A DNA stretch of 63,651 bases, the filler included, from Rhabdomonas costata (lineage: Eukaryota), in the NCBI GenBank assembly GCA_019059605.1. It is 47 parts of 47 records of this genome, joined end to end, with 100 filler letters (N's around TTAATTAATTAA, not from the genome) between each part and the next. Parts side by side here need not be neighbours in the genome. Positions count along the whole stretch, not along the records: positions 36,629 to 37,885 come from JAHMHO010021684.1; 46 more parts are not named here. One strand, written 5' to 3'. Positions 4,501-46,495 of this stretch are shown one piece after another. Every line of letters begins with the position of its first letter. Position 1 is the stretch's first letter. A program made the translations under genes and the position numbers. A model generated the notes under the pieces. The model saw only the letters and a program-made list of their open reading frames with translations. It ran no database searches and was not told the DNA's origin.

Positions 4501-5085
4501 CGACGAGTCCATTGGGTCCATGGTGACAGTGTTCATGGTGATGGTGGTGGAAGTGCTTCCAGAAGAAAAGGGTGACCCAGCGCCCAATCTTTCAGGTGCT
4601 GCAGCCGTGGGTGACGGCAGTGGCTCTTCAAGCCGAGCTTGCACCTGGTATACCTATGAATGAACAGGGAATCAGTGGAACCCTCACCGCCATTTAAACG
4701 CAACAACGGCGTTTTCCTGCTTAGAAACTTAGTGGGCTCCCTGGATTCGAATGCCACCCCACATTCCCAAGTAGAGGCGATACGGGGTGTCTCGGTGTTG
4801 AACCCGCGACTTTCAAAGTTACGTGCAGGTTTGTTTCGCTAAAAAAGTCCCTCTTTGTTTTTGTATGTGCGTGAAACATGAAGAAATCATAGAAAAGAAC
4901 ACTCAATGTGGTGCTGGGAGGCCACACGAATTCACGCCACCAAAAACTGGAATTGAGCAATGAAGACACACCAGATGCAGCCTCATAGCCAGAAGAAAAG
5001 CTTCCATGTCCGAACCGTATTCTGCCCACATTTTCTGACGATCGAAGCACAACGCACCGCCGAAGAGACCAATTCCTATAAAGCA

Positions 5086-5250
5086 AGAGACAGAGACAGA
5101 GACAGAGACAGAGACAGAGACAGAGACAGAGACAGAGACAGAGACAGAGACAGAGACAGAGACAGAGACAGAGACAGAGACAGAGACAGAGACAGAGACA
5201 GAGACAGAGACAGAGACAGAGACAGAGACAGAGACAGAGACAGAGACAGA
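5086..5250. repeat. (AGAGAC)n hexanucleotide microsatellite, ~27 copies
   Basis: Perfect array seen directly; it explains the RD/LC/SL repeat ORFs. Confidence 0.97.
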
Positions 5251-5429
5251 TGCTTTTCACCTTCCAAAGAGGACAAGGTTTCTATTCGCACGCGAAGCGG
5301 CATGCCCTATGAACGCTGAACACAAAAAANNNNNNNNNNNNNNNNNNNNNNNNNNNNNNNNNNNNNNNNNNNNTTAATTAATTAANNNNNNNNNNNNNNN
5401 NNNNNNNNNNNNNNNNNNNNNNNNNNNNN

Positions 5430-11319: not shown

Positions 11320-11743
11320 CAGCCCAATTTCCATGGCCAGCGCCACGGGGAACAACAGCAGAAACTTCACCGGAAGCTCCCCGGTGACCAGGTATAGTAC
11401 AAGGGGGACAAACAGATGCTGCAAAGGGCACAATGATAGAAGCGAAAAAAGTTAACCTCGAAGATCAAGCTTCAAGGACCTCGTCATCTCAACCCATACT
11501 ACACCTTCCAGAATTGGCTCACAAACCTGGTTGTGCTTTCAGGTAATCAGCAGTTTGTGAACATGGGCGGTAACAATTGGGAGCCCTCTGCATTGCGGGG
11601 TCCGATGGCAGGTCTGATTGTCGCTGTTCCAACGATTTCAGCTCTCCTCTCATTGCTGTTGCTGCAACTGCACAGGCTCCCGTTGGAGCCACTGGTGCTG
11701 CTGGCTGCGCGGCTGGAGCTGCTGCCACGACTTCTTTTGACAT
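11320..11743 (-). CDS. Hypothetical protein, probable first exons (11743-11527 and ~11419-11320)
   Basis: MSKEVVAAAPAAQPAAPVAPTG...YLKAQP ends at G|gtttgt. A phase-compatible exon follows: tttgcag|CA...G|gtgaga. Confidence 0.4.
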
Positions 11744-11777
11744 TCATTTGAGTTGCTCTTTCTGATGCCTTCGGTCC

Positions 11778-11842
11778 GCACTTGCACTTGCACTTGCACT
11801 TGCACTTGCACTTGCACTTGCACTTGCACTTGCACTTGCACT
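11778..11842. repeat. (GCACTT)n hexanucleotide microsatellite, ~11 copies
   Basis: Seen directly; it explains the CK and VQ repeat ORFs. Confidence 0.95.
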
Positions 11843-12274
11843 GTCGGCGTCCAAGGGCTTCTGTTTCATTTGTCGCCTTGGTCCCCGTCTCTTTCTTGAT
11901 CCCATGACCGGGCTCTTCTCTCGGCTCTGCTGCTGTTCTTTTTCTGCGGCGGTTGCTCCTTCGTCTCACTCAAGAACGCAAGGCAAAGAACAAAAGGGGA
12001 GGTCTGTAGTAGAAACAAAACCTGCACATGACAACATTGTAGAAAAGTCAAACGTACGGCCGATTTCTCTCCCCGGTCCACAAACAACCCAAACACACCC
12101 ACCACNNNNNNNNNNNNNNNNNNNNNNNNNNNNNNNNNNNNNNNNNNNNTTAATTAATTAANNNNNNNNNNNNNNNNNNNNNNNNNNNNNNNNNNNNNNN
12201 NNNNNGGGTGTTGGGAATGTGCAAACCCCCAAACACCCAAGCGCAAAGGAAGAGATGGTGGGGCAACCAAATAC

Positions 12275-36628: not shown

Positions 36629-37885
36629 GGGTGGTTGTGACATATTTTCTAACAAAATAAATTTTATAAAATTATTTTATGAAATTTATTTACTTTTTAC
36701 TACTATAATATTGCACATTTCAATTTTATGAATAAAATTGAATATAAATTATGAAAATAAAGATTTTTATAATTTTTTATTTTCAGACACAAATACTAAA
36801 ATTGTTTGTATCACAAATAATAAAATGTTAAAAATATATTTTTAACTATTTGATCTGTTATGGTGTATTTTTTATGTTTATATCCAAGTTATCTATTAAT
36901 AAAATCAATAGATAAATTTATCATTTATTATTTTTAAATTGTTATTCTCCAACATCATTACACTGTTTAAAATAATGTAAATATTATCTAATTTCTTTTC
37001 TTATGACATTCATAAATATTTATTATAAATCTCCAATAATTTCTTTAATTCTTAACTCACCTTCCATTAATATATTTGTTGAATGAAATGATCCCCATAT
37101 CATAGTAGGATCCGGATCAGTTGATCCTTTATATAAAGTATATAATCGCCCTTGTCCTTGTATTTGAGCTGTTATTTTATAATTTTTGCTATTGTATGCA
37201 AAAATTTTTTTCGTTTCGTCATCTTTATTTAATTGTTGTGCATATTTAAAAAACAATAAACCTAAATTCCCTCCTCCCGTTATTATTCCACCAATTTTTA
37301 AATTAATATATTTTTGTTTATATTTTTTATACAAATTAAAGTAATCTTCCATGTATATATATATACTTGACAAAATTTAATTTAATTTATATTTAATTTA
37401 ATTTACTTCGAGCTATGAAAATAAGAGAAAATAAACAATTCAATCAGATAACATATAAAAATATATTTTTTAACATTTTATTATTGATACACAAAAATTT
37501 ATTTTTAGTATTTAATATCTAAGAATAAAATTTATAAAAATCATACTTTCAATAGTCAATTATATATGTTATTGATTATGTAATTGTATATGTCATTGTT
37601 CATGTATGTTCTTATATTATGATCATAAAAACATTAGAATATTATAAACTTTTTTATAAAATATTTTTTTGTTTCATTAAGATGATTTATAGAGATATAT
37701 TATTTAATGAAATGTAATAACAATCATTTTACATACACTTATTGTTCCGCAATTTAATATAATTACATATGTTAGTCACTTTGTGACTAACAATGTATGA
37801 GCGCATATTATGGTCATAAAACATTAATAATCTTTTTTATAAAATATTTTATTATTTTATAAAAAGAATATGTAAACACAAACAA
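36629..37885. other. Extremely AT-rich foreign contig, candidate giant virus (Nucleocytoviricota, Imitervirales-like) DNA
   Basis: Composition is unlike every other contig. It has an intronless ORF with a KYKxKYxxLK-xGG motif, AAAATTGA on both strands (36734-36741 +, 36720-36727 -) and several AT hairpins. Confidence 0.7.
37023..37352 (-). CDS. 109-aa hypothetical protein with a giant-virus-type N-terminal YxKYKxKYxxLK-xGG motif
   Basis: ATG at 37352 follows tatatatatac. MEDYFNLYKKYKQKYINLKIGGIITGGG...IKEIIGDL*. It is a 330-nt stop-free frame in very AT-rich DNA and locally richer in GC than its flanks. Confidence 0.8.
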   Translation of the reverse strand: MEDYFNLYKKYKQKYINLKIGGIITGGGNLGLLFFKYAQQLNKDDETKKIFAYNSKNYKITAQIQGQGRLYTLYKGSTDPDPTMIWGSFHSTNILMEGELRIKEIIGDL

Positions 37886-38758
37886 NNNNNNNNNNNNNNN
37901 NNNNNNNNNNNNNNNNNNNNNNNNNNNNNTTAATTAATTAANNNNNNNNNNNNNNNNNNNNNNNNNNNNNNNNNNNNNNNNNNNNATGTCCTTTTACCAG
38001 GCAGGGTTATGGTTGTGTTTTTTTGTTAATGTAGATATGAAAATTGTTGCAGTGAGGATCAATATATGGAAACCTAATAGGTATGCAACATCGAGGTGAT
38101 GAGTGCAGCTGTCAGCAACGTGTTTACAAAAAGCACTCATATGAAGGACATTTTACTGAGATGTAGTCAAAACATAAACACACATTGGTTTTGTTTCAAG
38201 TGAGAATTGCATCTACAAGACTGCGCAGCAGACTCATGTTGTTGCAAATGCAGTTTTGTGGTGCGATGCAAAAAAGCAACAAAAGCTTGACCATTGCTTT
38301 GCTATTGATGGCCGGGTTAATGTGTTTCAAAACAAAGATGTCAAACCATGTGAAGCAAAAGTAAAAAGCATGAAATGTTTTATGCATTAACTGTGGATGG
38401 AACGTCGCCGCTACTGCTAATCTATACTTCATACAAAGCGCTTGGGTGATGGATACGTTGACTTTTTGAGTTTTTGGAAGATCTTCAATTATGAATTAGA
38501 AACGTGTACTTAGAGTGCAAAAAGTGGTGGTATTGCTATGCAATTGGAAACTATCTGCTGGTCAATCACAATTTCACACTTATTACACGGCTTTGATTAA
38601 AACATTGCGGCCGTTCCTTGCAATAAATTCTTTAAAACACGTTAATCCACACAAACTTACATTGAGGGGTTACAAACGAATCAACTAAGTGTTCGTTTAT
38701 CTACCAAGTATACATCAACCATGCATGACGGATTATGTCCATTGATAGTTAAAAACAG

Positions 38759-39242
38759 GCCGAATTACAGTATTTGCAACAAACTATATCAGATCACCAC
38801 ATTTAAACACGCACTTCCACGCCAGTCCATGGAAGTTATGCCGTTTATTCGGGATAAAATTAGGATCCACAATCTACCCTGTTTCACGTTTCGATTGGGT
38901 TTTGGGTTGTTGTGGGGTTGACTGATGTTCCGTGGTATTTTGTCAGCTGCGGTGTTGCAAGTAATAAAAACACAAAATGGATAAGGAAGCATATACAAAA
39001 GAACTGAAGCCATAACATGCCAGAGATAATACAGCATCAGCCTCATGTGCCAACATTAAAGGCGTACAAAAGAGCACGGCACGGAAGAAGAGGTTTTTCA
39101 ATGGGGACTGGGATTGCCGAATTACAGTATTTGCAACAAACTATATCAGATCACCACATTTAAACACGCACTTCCACGCCAGTCCATGGAAGTTATGCCG
39201 TTTATTCGGGATAAAATTAGGATCCACAATCTACCCTGTTTC
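38759..39242. repeat. 127-nt exact direct repeat (38759-38885 and 39116-39242)
   Basis: The copies are identical by eye, and the second ends exactly at the contig end. Confidence 0.9.
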
Positions 39243-44091: not shown

Positions 44092-46495
44092 GTAGCAATC
44101 TCAACTGTTAAGGCGCCCCTGAATAATTGACAACCCCCTCCCCCGTTGCGCAGACCCGTACGAAGTGATCGCTACACATGGTGACAATACTAATTCCAGA
44201 AGTGTGCAATGTGAATGTGGGACCACTGGAATCCCAAAAAACACGAGAATCGACCTAACCATCTGCAGAATGCATGTATCGTCACCTAACGGCGGCAACA
44301 GTTGCGCAGGGATCGCTAAGCAAAATCGCGAAGCGCGCGCCACGCACTTTTGAATTACGGGCGGAGGGCGTGCAATGTACTACAGCCGAAAAATCCCCTG
44401 CCCCTAGAGCGTTCGGAACAGCAACGTGCACGTACCGGCAGCGAAAAGTACTGTGAACGCAACAAAATAAACTGTGCCCTCGTAAAAAGGAAGAAAAGAG
44501 AAGAGGTACATAGCTGACCCCCTCCCGTGTCAACCACAGATCCCAGACACTATCTTAATCGGGCGCACAGAGATCCCTCACTAGGGCAAGGAATCTCGTG
44601 TGCACTGACACCTGAGATGGAGCCAACAGCACAGTGGTGACACAGTGCGACACAGCAAACCACCCACANNNNNNNNNNNNNNNNNNNNNNNNNNNNNNNN
44701 NNNNNNNNNNNNTTAATTAATTAANNNNNNNNNNNNNNNNNNNNNNNNNNNNNNNNNNNNNNNNNNNNTGTGTGTGTGTCTGTGTCTGTCTGTCTGTGCG
44801 TGTGTTAGCGCGCGCGCGGAGGTACATATGTCGACAAGACTGCCGTTCGTCTGGGGAAGCACAACAAGTAGGAAAACCGCTGCAGGGTGCCGGTGCCAGG
44901 GCAAGGATTCAACGAGAGAGAGAGAGAGAGAGAGCGAGGGAGCGAGGGAGAGGGAGAGAGATCGACAACGCGAACGATCCATTCCACATCCCCAACACCA
45001 GTCGATCCGGTTATAGTTCTGCGTCTCATGCGGGAGGAGGCACTCTTATCGGCATCCCTATCTCAGGGCAGCCCACAGTGGACGCAGTTGCAACCATGGT
45101 AGGATTTCCAGGGCAGTGCGGGATCTCAAAGACCAGTCAGCAGAACCCACAGCCACAGGCAGCCACTGCAACGGCTTGGGGTTGTCCATCGACCGCCGGT
45201 ATGTGTGGAGAGAGTTAGCCAGAAAAACACACCGTCCAAACCGGAGAAAGATTCTCTGACCGTCCGTCATCTTCTCATGACCTCGCAACGATTACCAAAA
45301 AGCCGGAACGATTTAGCCCGAAAACCCTGCTTATGAAATTCCAACATTGCTTTTATAGGGGAAGGGGTACGTGTTTACAGGAATTATGGAAATCGTTGTC
45401 GTTGTGGAAATCGCATCCAACATAATCTTGTCCCGGGTGTCTGTCAAAAGCATAACCTCGACCATTTCAAAAAAAAATCCGCAAAACCCACACCCACCCC
45501 CTCCATTCTGTGTTCCCTGTGTCAAGCACAGTGCCGTGCACCTGCATGTAGGGCAAGGTTGCGGGTCTGCTCTCTCTCCCTCAGATCTGCCAGAACCCTC
45601 ACGAGGACGTAGTTGCTTGCAGGATTGGGAGACGGCAAAGGGTGTTGCACTTGGAGTGGCGGTTGTGAGCTTTGCAGGAAAGAAGAGGAGGATGGGAAGG
45701 GAGATGAAGCGGAAGGCGGTGGGAAAGCCACAGGCTCAGTGGGAGTAGCATGACCACATGGTCCCAAACCCCGGGAAAGGGCCTCATTAGTCGGCATGCT
45801 AAACGAGTCTCCGGCGTCGGGAGGGGAAACGATGGTCTGCAGCATCCGCGACAGTACGTGTGCGTTCACGCGACCGGGGAGGTGTCAGACGGCACGGCGG
45901 GCTCGGACCAATTACGTGGCTTTTGCGACGTCCCCGCGTAGCCCACTCGATCCGCTCCCCTCCGTGGTCCCTCCAGACAAAGCTTTCGCTTTGTGAGCGC
46001 TGTCAACTCACCTAGGTGAGGAGACNNNNNNNNNNNNNNNNNNNNNNNNNNNNNNNNNNNNNNNNNNNNTTAATTAATTAANNNNNNNNNNNNNNNNNNN
46101 NNNNNNNNNNNNNNNNNNNNNNNNNGGTGTGTGGTACGACTTTTCTTGTACACACACGCTTCCTTCTCCTCTGTGGATTTCCTCTCCGTCTTTTCATCAC
46201 ACCCATACACAACCACGAATTTTCGGCCCACTACTACAAGCGGACGCACACGGATGCACAGAGATAAGTCCCCATTTGCTTGTGCATCTCTGTATTTATC
46301 CATTGGAATGCCTCTAAAACAGCCCACACAAGCATGTACCACTGTACACTGGTGTTTGTGTTGCTTGCTCGGCGAGAACAACACCAGCTGACACAACTGT
46401 CCCCAAACCTTACAAAAACACCGCAGTGAAACATTCTGACAAAAGGGTCTTCTTTCCCCTCAACAAGGATGATAATAGGGGGGGGGGGGGCGCAG

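What the first reader, a model, noticed from the sequence alone, without database searches (positions are those of the whole stretch)
36629..37885. Candidate giant virus (Mimiviridae/Klosneuvirinae-like) DNA in a euglenid assembly
Seen: the contig is far more AT-rich than all others. Its one intronless ORF starts MEDYFNLYKKYKQKYINLKIGG after a TATATATA run, and it carries the same G/T and A/C end tags as host contigs. From recognition: short YxxKYxKYKxKYLxLK-xxGG segments are widespread in hypothetical proteins of AT-rich Imitervirales, and GG is a known processing site in some NCLDV virion proteins (ASFV GG-X). Known: the klosneuvirus BsV infects the kinetoplastid Bodo, while euglenid viruses are, to my knowledge, barely characterised. 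Inference: an infecting, ingested or endogenised giant virus, which would be a new host-virus system.
Basis: partly seen in the sequence, partly recalled or inferred. Interest (0 to 1): 0.85.

Follow-up and report, generated by a model that had tools for sequence, protein, structure and literature searches.

The report
Giant-virus-type gene on AT-rich contig
A 1.2-kb, very AT-rich DNA piece amplified together with a protist's genome carries one small gene whose start-of-protein tag and promoter-like leader match a signature seen on many proteins of uncultured giant viruses, so it is most likely giant-virus DNA, but nothing shows that the virus infects this cell.

Summary
The contig at 36629-37885 has 18.6% GC; the other 46 contigs have 39-59%. 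It carries one real-looking 109-aa ORF on the minus strand and the same primer-like G/T and A/C end tags as its neighbours.

The body of the protein (residues 23-109) has no relative in any library searched. The first 22 residues, MEDYFNLYKKYKQKYINLKIGG, fit a tag with consensus M..Y..KYLKYKxKYLxLK..GG. I tested that tag and found it common in AT-rich giant-virus metagenome contigs. It sits right after the start Met (71 of 133 matches) or at the C-terminal end (36 of 133), on unrelated domains, and usually behind a TATATA run that abuts the ATG. The target has the same leader. Two controls, prokaryote genomes and a reversed-order pattern, gave 0 of 229 matches with this combination.

Giant-virus origin is therefore supported, at about 0.7. 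Four things are not shown: the order (Imitervirales or Klosneuvirinae), any hallmark gene, any link to the cell, and cleavage at the GG. Against the reading, the contig is only 26% coding, which is rare in the reference giant-virus loci (1.1% of windows). No whole assembly was available, so binning was impossible.

The parts
36629..36639 (+). 5' run of G/T only (GGGTGGTTGTG), probably the remnant of an amplification primer and not native sequence
   Evidence: the run is 11 nt. Runs of 8 nt or more occur at the 5' end of 31 of 47 contigs. The composition is foreign to an 18.6% GC contig.
37874..37885 (+). 3' run of A/C only, probably a primer remnant
   Evidence: the run is 12 nt. Runs of 8 nt or more occur at the 3' end of 32 of 47 contigs.
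37023..37352 (-). ORF of 109 aa plus a TAA stop (P0001): an N-terminal tag followed by an 87-aa body with no known relative
   Evidence: define the ORF and its coding signal. No homologue was found.
37287..37352 (-). Codons 1-22, encoding the terminal tag MEDYFNLYKKYKQKYINLKIGG
   Evidence: It aligns with 62 N-terminal tags from viral loci. It scores 21.6 bits on a tag HMM built without it. It is 77% identical over 112 nt to L037, across GG, tag, ATG and leader.
37354..37365 (-). TATATATATATA leader ending one base before the ATG; a candidate initiator-type (late-class) promoter element
   Evidence: One search shows the sequence. In the reference loci TATATA lies within 12 nt of the ATG in 43 of 58 N-tagged ORFs, against 150 of 754 other ORFs and 2.8% of random 12-mers. 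A TATATA initiator in ASFV late promoters is described in PMC5294985 (passages).
36728..36844 (.). Left arm of an imperfect inverted repeat that brackets the ORF
   Evidence: The longest exact inverted match is 20 nt, against 11-16 nt in 40 Markov shuffles.
37456..37576 (.). Right arm of the imperfect inverted repeat; it includes a second, imperfect copy of the palindromic motif found at 36827-36846
   Evidence: (pairs I1, I2, I6 and direct repeat D2).
36719..36742 (.). Perfect hairpin (11-bp stem, 2-nt loop) whose two arms are the octamer AAAATTGA on opposite strands
36827..36846 (.). Perfect 20-nt palindrome 177 nt downstream of the stop codon; a candidate 3'-end hairpin
37770..37792 (.). 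Perfect hairpin (10-bp stem, 3-nt loop) in the upstream flank
37834..37865 (.). Perfect hairpin (13-bp stem, 6-nt loop), lying inside the second copy of a 48-nt direct repeat (37644-37691 and 37827-37874, 79% identical)
   Evidence: (D1).

Best explanation
The contig is most likely a fragment of the genome of an AT-rich giant virus (Nucleocytoviricota), or of a mobile or satellite element living with one. It was present in the sample and was co-amplified with the cell's DNA.

Its single gene belongs to a large class of giant-virus genes. These encode a short basic-aromatic helix tag (consensus M..Y..KYLKYKxKYLxLK) joined through a Gly-Gly to an unrelated protein body. They are usually preceded by a TATATA run that abuts the ATG.

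Inferred, not shown:
- The TATATA run works as an initiator-type promoter of a late gene class, as it does in African swine fever virus.
- The tag is a portable signal that sends the protein to a common destination, such as the virion or the virus factory.
- The Gly-Gly may be a cleavage site for the viral cysteine protease.

The 87-residue body of this protein has no recognisable relative. Whether the virus infects this cell, was eaten, stuck to it, or is integrated remains open.
For: 1. The ORF is real-looking. It beats 1000 of 1000 shuffles and has a codon-position GC gradient of 33/28/15%.

2. The tag is a true giant-virus feature.
Of these, 63 of 120 are named GVMAG.
- Of the 133 matches, 71 lie 16 residues or less after the first Met. 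Of those 71, 51 have GG within 16 residues and 47 have TATATA within 12 nt of the ATG. A further 36 are at the extreme C-terminus, 12 are internal and 14 are short or truncated.

3. Controls.
- The same pattern in prokaryote genomes gave 122 matches: 2 N-terminal, 0 with GG and 0 with TATATA.
- A reversed-order pattern of identical composition gave 107 matches in all of IMG/VR: 2 N-terminal, 0 with GG and 0 with TATATA. Of the first 80 loci listed, 10 are GVMAG.

4. A profile of 63 N-terminal tags found 2091 proteins at E<=0.01 among 8000 scored.

5. The target fits the tag.
- It aligns with the consensus.
- It scores 21.6 bits on an HMM built without it.
- Its DNA is 72-80% identical over 76-112 nt to eight viral loci, across GG, tag and ATG and, in most of them, the TATATA leader.

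6. The reference loci carry giant-virus-type genes: fused type II topoisomerase, Rpb2, Hsp70, XRN, Lon, ubiquitin E1 and DUF4116. A piece of Rpb2 from one tagged locus is nearest to Nucleocytoviricota clusters.

7. A GC of 18.6% is ordinary for these loci: 1402 of 8963 windows are at or below it.

8. No rRNA, tRNA or other Rfam family was found.
Against: - The contig has no hallmark gene, and the protein body has no relative at all, viral ones included.
- Coding density is 26%. The median in 8963 windows of the reference loci is 94%, and only 1.1% of windows are as sparse (2.0% among windows with GC of 22% or less).
- Only 5 of 904 genes in those loci have ORF-free flanks of 390 nt or more on both sides, although 2 of the 5 are N-tagged genes.
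- The target's tag is a divergent variant. It has LYK where the consensus has KYL. Its GG follows the core after 1 residue, whereas the modal spacing is 3 (107 of 154; spacing 1 occurs in 2 of 154).
- AT-rich eukaryote genomes could not be scanned, so the tag's specificity was tested only against prokaryotes and a reversed pattern.
- The source gave no taxon names for the database hits.
- Hairpin richness does not discriminate: tagged viral loci and AT-rich prokaryote loci both show about twice as many hairpins as their shuffles.
Confidence: 0.72

Rival explanations
1. The contig is giant-virus-derived but endogenised: a piece of a giant endogenous viral element sitting in the protist's nuclear genome rather than in a free or replicating virus.
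For: Eroded giant endogenous viral elements are published for Euglena gracilis (PMC12455990, abstract and passages). The very low coding density (26%) and the repeat- and palindrome-rich flanks would fit a decaying insert. The contig was amplified along with the host contigs.
Against: The contig contains no junction with host-like (about 50% GC) sequence. The ORF is intact and has a clean coding signal. The published Euglena elements are Asfuvirales, and no order could be assigned here. The end tags are primer-like and carry no information about linkage.
Confidence: 0.12
2. The contig is nuclear DNA of an unrelated AT-rich eukaryote (prey, parasite or contaminant). A small gene sits in long AT-rich intergenic DNA, and the resemblance to the viral tag is convergent or reflects an old transfer.
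For: One gene in 1257 bp, flanks of 16% GC and many palindromes resemble gene-sparse AT-rich eukaryotic DNA more than typical giant-virus DNA. No eukaryote genome collection was available as a control.
Against: The combination of N-terminal tag, GG and TATATA at the ATG was seen in 0 of 229 control matches, but in 31 of 71 N-terminal matches in viral contigs. DNA-level similarity to viral loci extends from the tag into the leader. None of 1.84 billion representative proteins matches the protein.
Confidence: 0.08
3. The contig is organellar DNA or DNA of an extremely AT-rich bacterial symbiont.
For: Very low GC occurs in such genomes. The control scan did include prokaryote loci of 14-16% GC, L129 and L160.
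Against: No tRNA, rRNA or other Rfam family was found. The ORF has no homologue among prokaryote genomes or in the protein libraries. Reading TGA as Trp does not extend the frame. The tag signature is absent in 122 prokaryote matches apart from three contigs that themselves look viral. A coding density of 26% is far below that of bacteria.
Confidence: 0.04
4. There is no gene: the ORF is a chance open frame in low-complexity AT-rich DNA, or an amplification artefact.
For: No homologue exists for the body. The single-sequence structure model has no confidence (pLDDT 35).
Against: The ORF is longer than in 1000 of 1000 shuffles. It has a GC step and a codon-position gradient. Its start matches a protein tag and leader found in thousands of proteins. 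The flanking inverted repeat is imperfect (about 70-80%), unlike a fresh amplification chimera.
Confidence: 0.04

Closest known systems
N-tagged ORFs of uncultured giant-virus contigs in IMG/VR, for example L037:7224-8426 (-) on a GVMAG contig of 16% GC (MDDYKSKYLKYKSKYINLKGG...)
   Same: The same tag right after Met, the same Gly-Gly boundary, and the same TATATATA run abutting the ATG. Identity is 77% over 112 nt. GC is similarly very low.
   Different: The protein body is unrelated. The target's tag has LYK in place of KYL and a 1-residue spacer before GG. The target lies in unusually gene-poor DNA.
[quoted passage not shown]
   Same: A TATATA run lies directly at the start of the gene. In the reference loci it marks a subset of genes: 74% of tagged ORFs against 20% of other ORFs.
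   Different: No transcription data exist here. The viruses that carry the tag were not placed in any order. Both papers were read as passages only.
Gly-Gly-X processing of virion proteins by clan CE cysteine proteases (ASFV pS273R, adenovirus protease, mavirus protease); recalled knowledge, also named as closest known in earlier scan note e1-5580644
   Same: A conserved Gly-Gly separates a dispensable-looking terminal piece from the body. GG follows the N-tag in 154 of 174 cases, with a modal spacing of 3 residues.
   Different: No cleavage has been shown for any tagged protein. Only 13 of 40 C-terminal tags have a GG within 20 residues. No protease gene was examined.
Giant endogenous viral elements of Euglena gracilis (Asfuvirales; PMC12455990) and Bodo saltans virus (Imitervirales), the only isolated giant virus of Discoba according to that paper
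   Same: Giant-virus sequence associated with a euglenozoan.
   Different: Those cases rest on marker-gene phylogenies and on long integrated regions or an isolate. Here there is one 1.2-kb contig with no marker gene, an unverified host identity and no evidence of linkage.
Mimiviridae 'hairpin rule' for transcript ends (PMC4402537, abstract read)
   Same: The contig has 5 perfect hairpins with stems of 9 bp or more, against 0.6 expected. One is a 20-nt palindrome downstream of the ORF.
   Different: That palindrome lies 177 nt after the stop, not directly after it. Hairpin excess was equally present in AT-rich prokaryote control loci, so it does not diagnose the family.

Membership tests
Nucleocytoviricota (giant-virus genome fragment) | Presence of hallmark genes (major capsid protein, PolB, A32 ATPase, VLTF3, D5 primase-helicase) on the sequence or in its bin | tested here: not met
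   The only ORF has no Pfam family and no homologue. The bin could not be examined because no genome is held.
Nucleocytoviricota (giant-virus genome fragment) | Lineage-typical protein feature: the terminal KYLKYKxKYLxLK tag with a Gly-Gly boundary (defined here, not a curated family) | tested here: met
   The controls are.
Nucleocytoviricota (giant-virus genome fragment) | Promoter-like TATATA run abutting the ATG, as on tagged genes in the reference loci | tested here: met
Nucleocytoviricota (giant-virus genome fragment) | High coding density (about 90%) | tested here: not met
   Density is 26% against a median of 94%. Only 1.1% of 8963 reference windows are as sparse. Precedents exist: 5 of 904 genes, 2 of them tagged.
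Imitervirales / Mimiviridae / Klosneuvirinae | Placement by marker-gene phylogeny | not testable with these tools
   There is no marker gene on the contig. The tag-bearing loci could be placed only at phylum level. The records behind the loci are not held for whole-record search.
Imitervirales / Mimiviridae / Klosneuvirinae | AAAATTGA early promoter octamer upstream of genes (recalled; CroV and mimivirus use is mentioned in PMC5294985) | tested here: not met
   The two copies in the contig form a hairpin at 36720-36741, about 280 nt downstream of the ORF. None lies upstream of it, and the count in the window is within chance.
Imitervirales / Mimiviridae / Klosneuvirinae | Palindromic hairpin at transcript 3' ends (PMC4402537, abstract) | tested here: inconclusive
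   Hairpins are enriched, but the nearest perfect one is 177 nt past the stop. The excess is not specific to viral loci.
Endogenous viral element of the host | Physical junction with host sequence | tested here: not met
   The contig is uniformly AT-rich between its primer-like ends. Read-level tests were unavailable.
Organelle or bacterial genome | rRNA or tRNA genes, conserved cellular proteins, dense coding | tested here: not met

The most novel reading that the evidence does not exclude
The contig comes from a replicating, AT-rich giant virus that infects this (reportedly euglenid) cell. That would be the first such virus caught in a euglenid.

Its gene also exemplifies an apparently undescribed expression and sorting module of giant viruses. 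In this reading, a TATATA initiator drives a late gene class whose products carry a portable KYLKYKxKYLxLK helix, at either terminus. The helix directs them to the virion or factory and is removed at the adjoining Gly-Gly by the viral clan CE protease.
Probability: 0.12. Interest if true: 0.78.

Novelty: new member of a known kind. Interest (0 to 1): 0.45.

Why it matters
For the assembly, the contig is a flag that giant-virus DNA is present in the amplified material. It is a cheap handle for pulling out the rest of that virus: low GC, plus the tag profile. If hallmark genes follow, this could become a virus-host lead for euglenids. For these, the paper I read reports only eroded Asfuvirales inserts in Euglena gracilis and names Bodo saltans virus as the only isolate for all Discoba (PMC12455990).

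The more general point is the tag itself. More than 2000 proteins matched the tag profile at E<=0.01 among the 8000 candidates scored. The tagged ORFs examined in giant-virus contigs have unrelated bodies and preferentially share the same leader. My literal and keyword searches of the paper library found no description of it. Such a tag would give a sequence-only way to predict a co-regulated, perhaps virion-bound, protein set in uncultured giant viruses.

Tried and rejected
Searches with the 109-aa protein all returned nothing:
- Pfam.
- The word-indexed protein search, with the whole protein and with residues 1-40.
- phmmer against 1.84 billion representatives.
- The ESM Atlas.
- Back-translated scans of viral, metagenome and prokaryote contigs.
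- A local phmmer and tblastn of residues 23-109 against the 121 fetched proteins, 812 ORFs and 240 loci held at that point (best E 0.1 and 1.4).

Structure. The single-sequence AlphaFold2 model had pLDDT 35, so no fold search was run.

Self-association of the tag. One complex-prediction job on two copies of the 40-residue N-terminus returned 'no answer'. It counts neither for nor against binding.

Taxon names. Cluster look-up of ten NCBI-held tagged proteins gave no accession or organism. The PDB has no tagged chain.

Other genetic codes. Tables that keep TAA and TAG as stops leave the same frame as the longest, apart from table 22, which cuts it to 81 codons. Tables that reassign TAA or TAG open many or all frames and are uninformative.

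The flanking inverted repeat as a shared feature of isolated tagged genes. It was not found around the comparable genes in L066, L010 or L037.

Hairpin density as a viral marker. Rejected, because AT-rich prokaryote loci show the same two-fold excess over shuffles.

Not available. The whole assembly and the sequencing-run and read tools.

Earlier scan notes. Look-ups by place and by sequence found nothing for this genome.
Full report
What is there. The window is not one locus. It is 47 assembly contigs of 1248-1260 bp joined by N...TTAATTAATTAA...N spacers. The contig at 36629-37885 has 18.6% GC, while the other 46 range from 39.1 to 59.4%.

It holds one ORF of 109 aa on the minus strand, at 37023-37352 (P0001). 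The ORF is longer than the longest ATG-ORF in any of 1000 Markov-1 shuffles of the contig (shuffle mean 46 aa, maximum 103). It has 25% GC against 16% in the flanks, and its GC at codon positions 1/2/3 is 33/28/15%. I take it as a real gene read with the standard stops. Codes that keep TAA and TAG as stops leave the same frame as the longest (table 22 shortens it to 81 codons). Codes that reassign them open many or all frames and say nothing. TATATATATATA at 37354-37365 ends one base before the ATG.

End tags. The contig begins with 11 bases of G/T only and ends with 12 bases of A/C only. Such runs of 8 nt or more are found at the 5' end of 31 of 47 contigs and at the 3' end of 32 of 47, and at both ends of 22. 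They never occur in the opposite polarity. From memory, degenerate G/T-only 'self-inert' primers are used by some PCR-based whole-genome amplification kits. The one passage I read says only that PicoPLEX uses self-inert degenerate primers (PMC5719346). So the tags mean that this molecule was in the tube and was amplified. They do not mean that it is joined to the host genome.

The neighbouring contigs are mostly non-coding and microsatellite-bearing, as expected for genomic DNA of a large eukaryotic genome. I could not verify that the organism is a euglenid. No assembly is held, and Rfam found nothing in the window.

The protein body is an orphan. All of the following gave no hit:
- Pfam.
- The indexed protein search.
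- phmmer against 1.84 billion representatives.
- The ESM Atlas.
- Back-translated scans of viral, metagenome and prokaryote contigs.

There is also no tRNA and no Rfam family. A single-sequence structure model was useless (pLDDT 35).

The N-terminal segment is the informative part. Of these, 63 of 120 carry 'GVMAG' in their name. The abstract of PMC13524828, seen in a search listing, uses that term for giant-virus metagenome-assembled genomes. Locus GC runs from 13 to 41%, with a median of 24%.

The 133 matches divide as follows:
- 71 lie within 16 residues of the first Met of an ORF that continues for at least 25 more residues. Of these, 51 have GG within the next 16 residues and 47 have TATATA within 12 nt before the ATG.
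- 36 lie within 10 residues of the stop codon of an ORF.
- 12 are internal.
- 14 are in short or truncated frames.

The aligned N-termini give the consensus MxYxxKYLKYKxKYLxLKxQxGG, and the target aligns to it.

Two controls show that this is not AT-rich noise. The same pattern in the prokaryote genome collection gave 122 matches in 120 loci. Two were N-terminal, none had GG and none had TATATA, and 83 lay in short or truncated frames. Three of those loci (L156, L178, L225) do carry convincing C-terminal tags, some preceded by GG, on short, low-GC contigs of metagenome bins. I read these as mis-binned viral contigs. A reversed-order pattern with the same bases and degeneracy gave 107 matches in all of IMG/VR: 2 N-terminal, 0 with GG, 0 with TATATA and 93 in short or truncated frames. 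Of the first 80 loci listed, 10 are GVMAG.

A profile of the 63 aligned N-termini (the target's plus 62 from viral loci) found 2091 proteins at E<=0.01 among the 8000 candidates scored. No organism names came with them.

How the target fits the tag.
- An HMM built from the 62 viral tags without the target scores P0001 at 21.6 bits.
- At the DNA level the target is 77% identical over 112 nt to L037, a GVMAG contig of 16% GC. It is 72-80% identical over 76-110 nt to seven further viral loci. The alignments run from the Gly-Gly codons through the tag and the ATG and, in most cases, into the TATATA run and beyond.
- The target's tag is nevertheless a variant. It has LYK where most have KYL. Its GG follows the core after one residue, whereas the usual spacing is three (107 of 154; spacing one in 2 of 154).

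What the tag and leader probably are. Pfam matched only 28 families across the 97 tagged ORFs, none in more than 3 of them. They include thioredoxin (3), histidine phosphatase (2), and single cases of beta-lactamase fold, acid phosphatase, ubiquitin-conjugating enzyme, XRN, ankyrin, LRR, cupin, kinase and OTU. The tag is therefore portable and works at either end of a protein.

Its hydrophobic residues (Y, Y, Y, L, plus two L) fall on one face of a helix of about four turns, and lysines fill the rest. This is my reading of the consensus, not a computation.

TATATA within 12 nt of the ATG is present in 43 of 58 N-tagged ORFs, in 150 of 754 other ORFs of 100 aa or more in the same loci, and in 2.8% of random 12-mers. 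Tagged genes therefore share a leader. In African swine fever virus a TATATA at the initiation site is required for late promoters (PMC5294985, passages). TATATA lies 0 to -20 bp from the ATG in asfarvirus and kaumoebavirus (PMC5974111, passages).

My working model has three inferred steps:
- The leader is a late-class initiator.
- The tag is a sorting or docking helix for a common destination such as the virion or factory.
- The Gly-Gly is a linker that may be cut by a Gly-Gly-specific viral protease.

The knowledge of ASFV, adenovirus and mavirus clan CE proteases is recalled. That note is a lead, not evidence. A mimivirus thioredoxin-family protein, R443, is discussed in PMC13186993, a study of the mimivirus capsid's protein interaction network (passages). 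This is only loosely in line with tagged thioredoxins. A two-copy complex prediction of the tag gave no answer.

Are the reference loci really giant viruses? The 61 longest complete ORFs of the 120 loci include a fused type II topoisomerase, Rpb2, Hsp70, XRN, Lon, ubiquitin E1, dynamin, ribonucleotide reductase and DUF4116. A 456-aa piece of the Rpb2 next to a tagged gene has Nucleocytoviricota clusters among its three nearest Atlas clusters. I could not assign an order.

Evidence against, and unexplained features.
- Only 26% of the contig is covered by ORFs of 60 aa or more. In 8963 windows of the same size from the reference loci the median is 94%, and 1.1% are as sparse (2.0% of the 3374 windows with GC of 22% or less).
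- ORF-free gaps of 390 nt or more do occur there: 55 in 1.04 Mb. Genes with such gaps on both sides number 5 of 904, and two of the five are N-tagged (L010, L066). The architecture has precedent but is rare.
- The flanks are packed with palindromes: 5 perfect hairpins with stems of 9 bp or more, against 0.6 expected, and 0 of 200 shuffles reach 5.
- An imperfect inverted repeat brackets the ORF (about 36728-36844 and 37456-37576). Its longest exact match is 20 nt, against 11-16 nt in 40 shuffles. Part of it is two copies of one palindromic motif (D2 and I6).
- There is a 48-nt direct repeat near the right end (D1).
- Comparable tagged genes in L066, L010 and L037 lack a bracketing repeat.
- Hairpin excess is not virus-specific. 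It is 0.76 per kb against 0.34 per kb in shuffles for 60 viral loci, and 0.47 against 0.20 for 31 AT-rich prokaryote loci.
- The octamer AAAATTGA occurs twice, as the two arms of the hairpin at 36719-36742. This is downstream of the ORF, and the count in the window is within chance.

These features would fit a gene-poor, repeat-rich genome region, a small mobile or satellite element of a giant virus, or a decaying endogenous copy. I cannot tell which.

Comparison with what is known, and verdict. Giant viruses are already linked to Euglenozoa through two cases: Bodo saltans virus, and eight eroded Asfuvirales elements in Euglena gracilis (PMC12455990, abstract and passages). One orphan gene on a 1.2-kb contig is a lead, not a new host-virus system.

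I rate giant-virus origin at about 0.72. Within that, I leave open whether the DNA is infecting, ingested, attached or integrated. The main rivals are an endogenised copy (0.12), an AT-rich eukaryote (0.08), an organelle or symbiont (0.04) and no gene at all (0.04).

The tag-plus-leader module is widespread. I did not find it described in the paper library by literal strings or keywords, but those searches are narrow, and supplements were closed.

Noticed in passing
window 37986-39242: The next contig is the only other compositional outlier (39% GC) and lacks the G/T and A/C end runs. It has no convincing ORF, and it contains an internal repeat about 390 nt apart: the same peptide stretch is read at 38721 and again at 39114.
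   Followed up: partly
L156, L178 and L225 (prokaryote genome collection): Three contigs filed in bacterial or archaeal metagenome bins carry convincing C-terminal tags, GG-preceded in L156 and L225 (L225 has three such ORFs). They have 22-27% GC. They are probably giant-virus contigs mis-binned into prokaryote MAGs.
   Followed up: partly
L001-L120 (IMG/VR): The KYLKYKxKYLxLK tag occurs at either terminus, on thioredoxins, phosphatases, kinases, a ubiquitin-conjugating enzyme, an OTU protease, ankyrin and LRR proteins and many orphans. N-tagged genes carry TATATA at the ATG 3.7 times more often than their neighbours (43 of 58 against 150 of 754). It looks like a co-regulated, co-sorted protein set.
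   Followed up: partly
window 36719-36742: The mimivirus-type early promoter octamer AAAATTGA occurs twice, on opposite strands, as the two arms of a perfect 11-bp hairpin about 280 nt downstream of the ORF. The count in the window is within chance.
   Followed up: partly
L010:4741-4797: A 26-nt stem that is 96% complementary sits about 20 nt upstream of the ATG of an N-tagged gene. It may be the 3'-end hairpin of the preceding transcription unit.
   Followed up: no
window 4724-5281, 11550-11969 and 44769-45215: Host-like contigs carry long dinucleotide microsatellites, read as CL, KC or CV repeats in translation. They show few convincing coding frames, as expected for genomic DNA of a large, gene-poor eukaryotic genome.
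   Followed up: no
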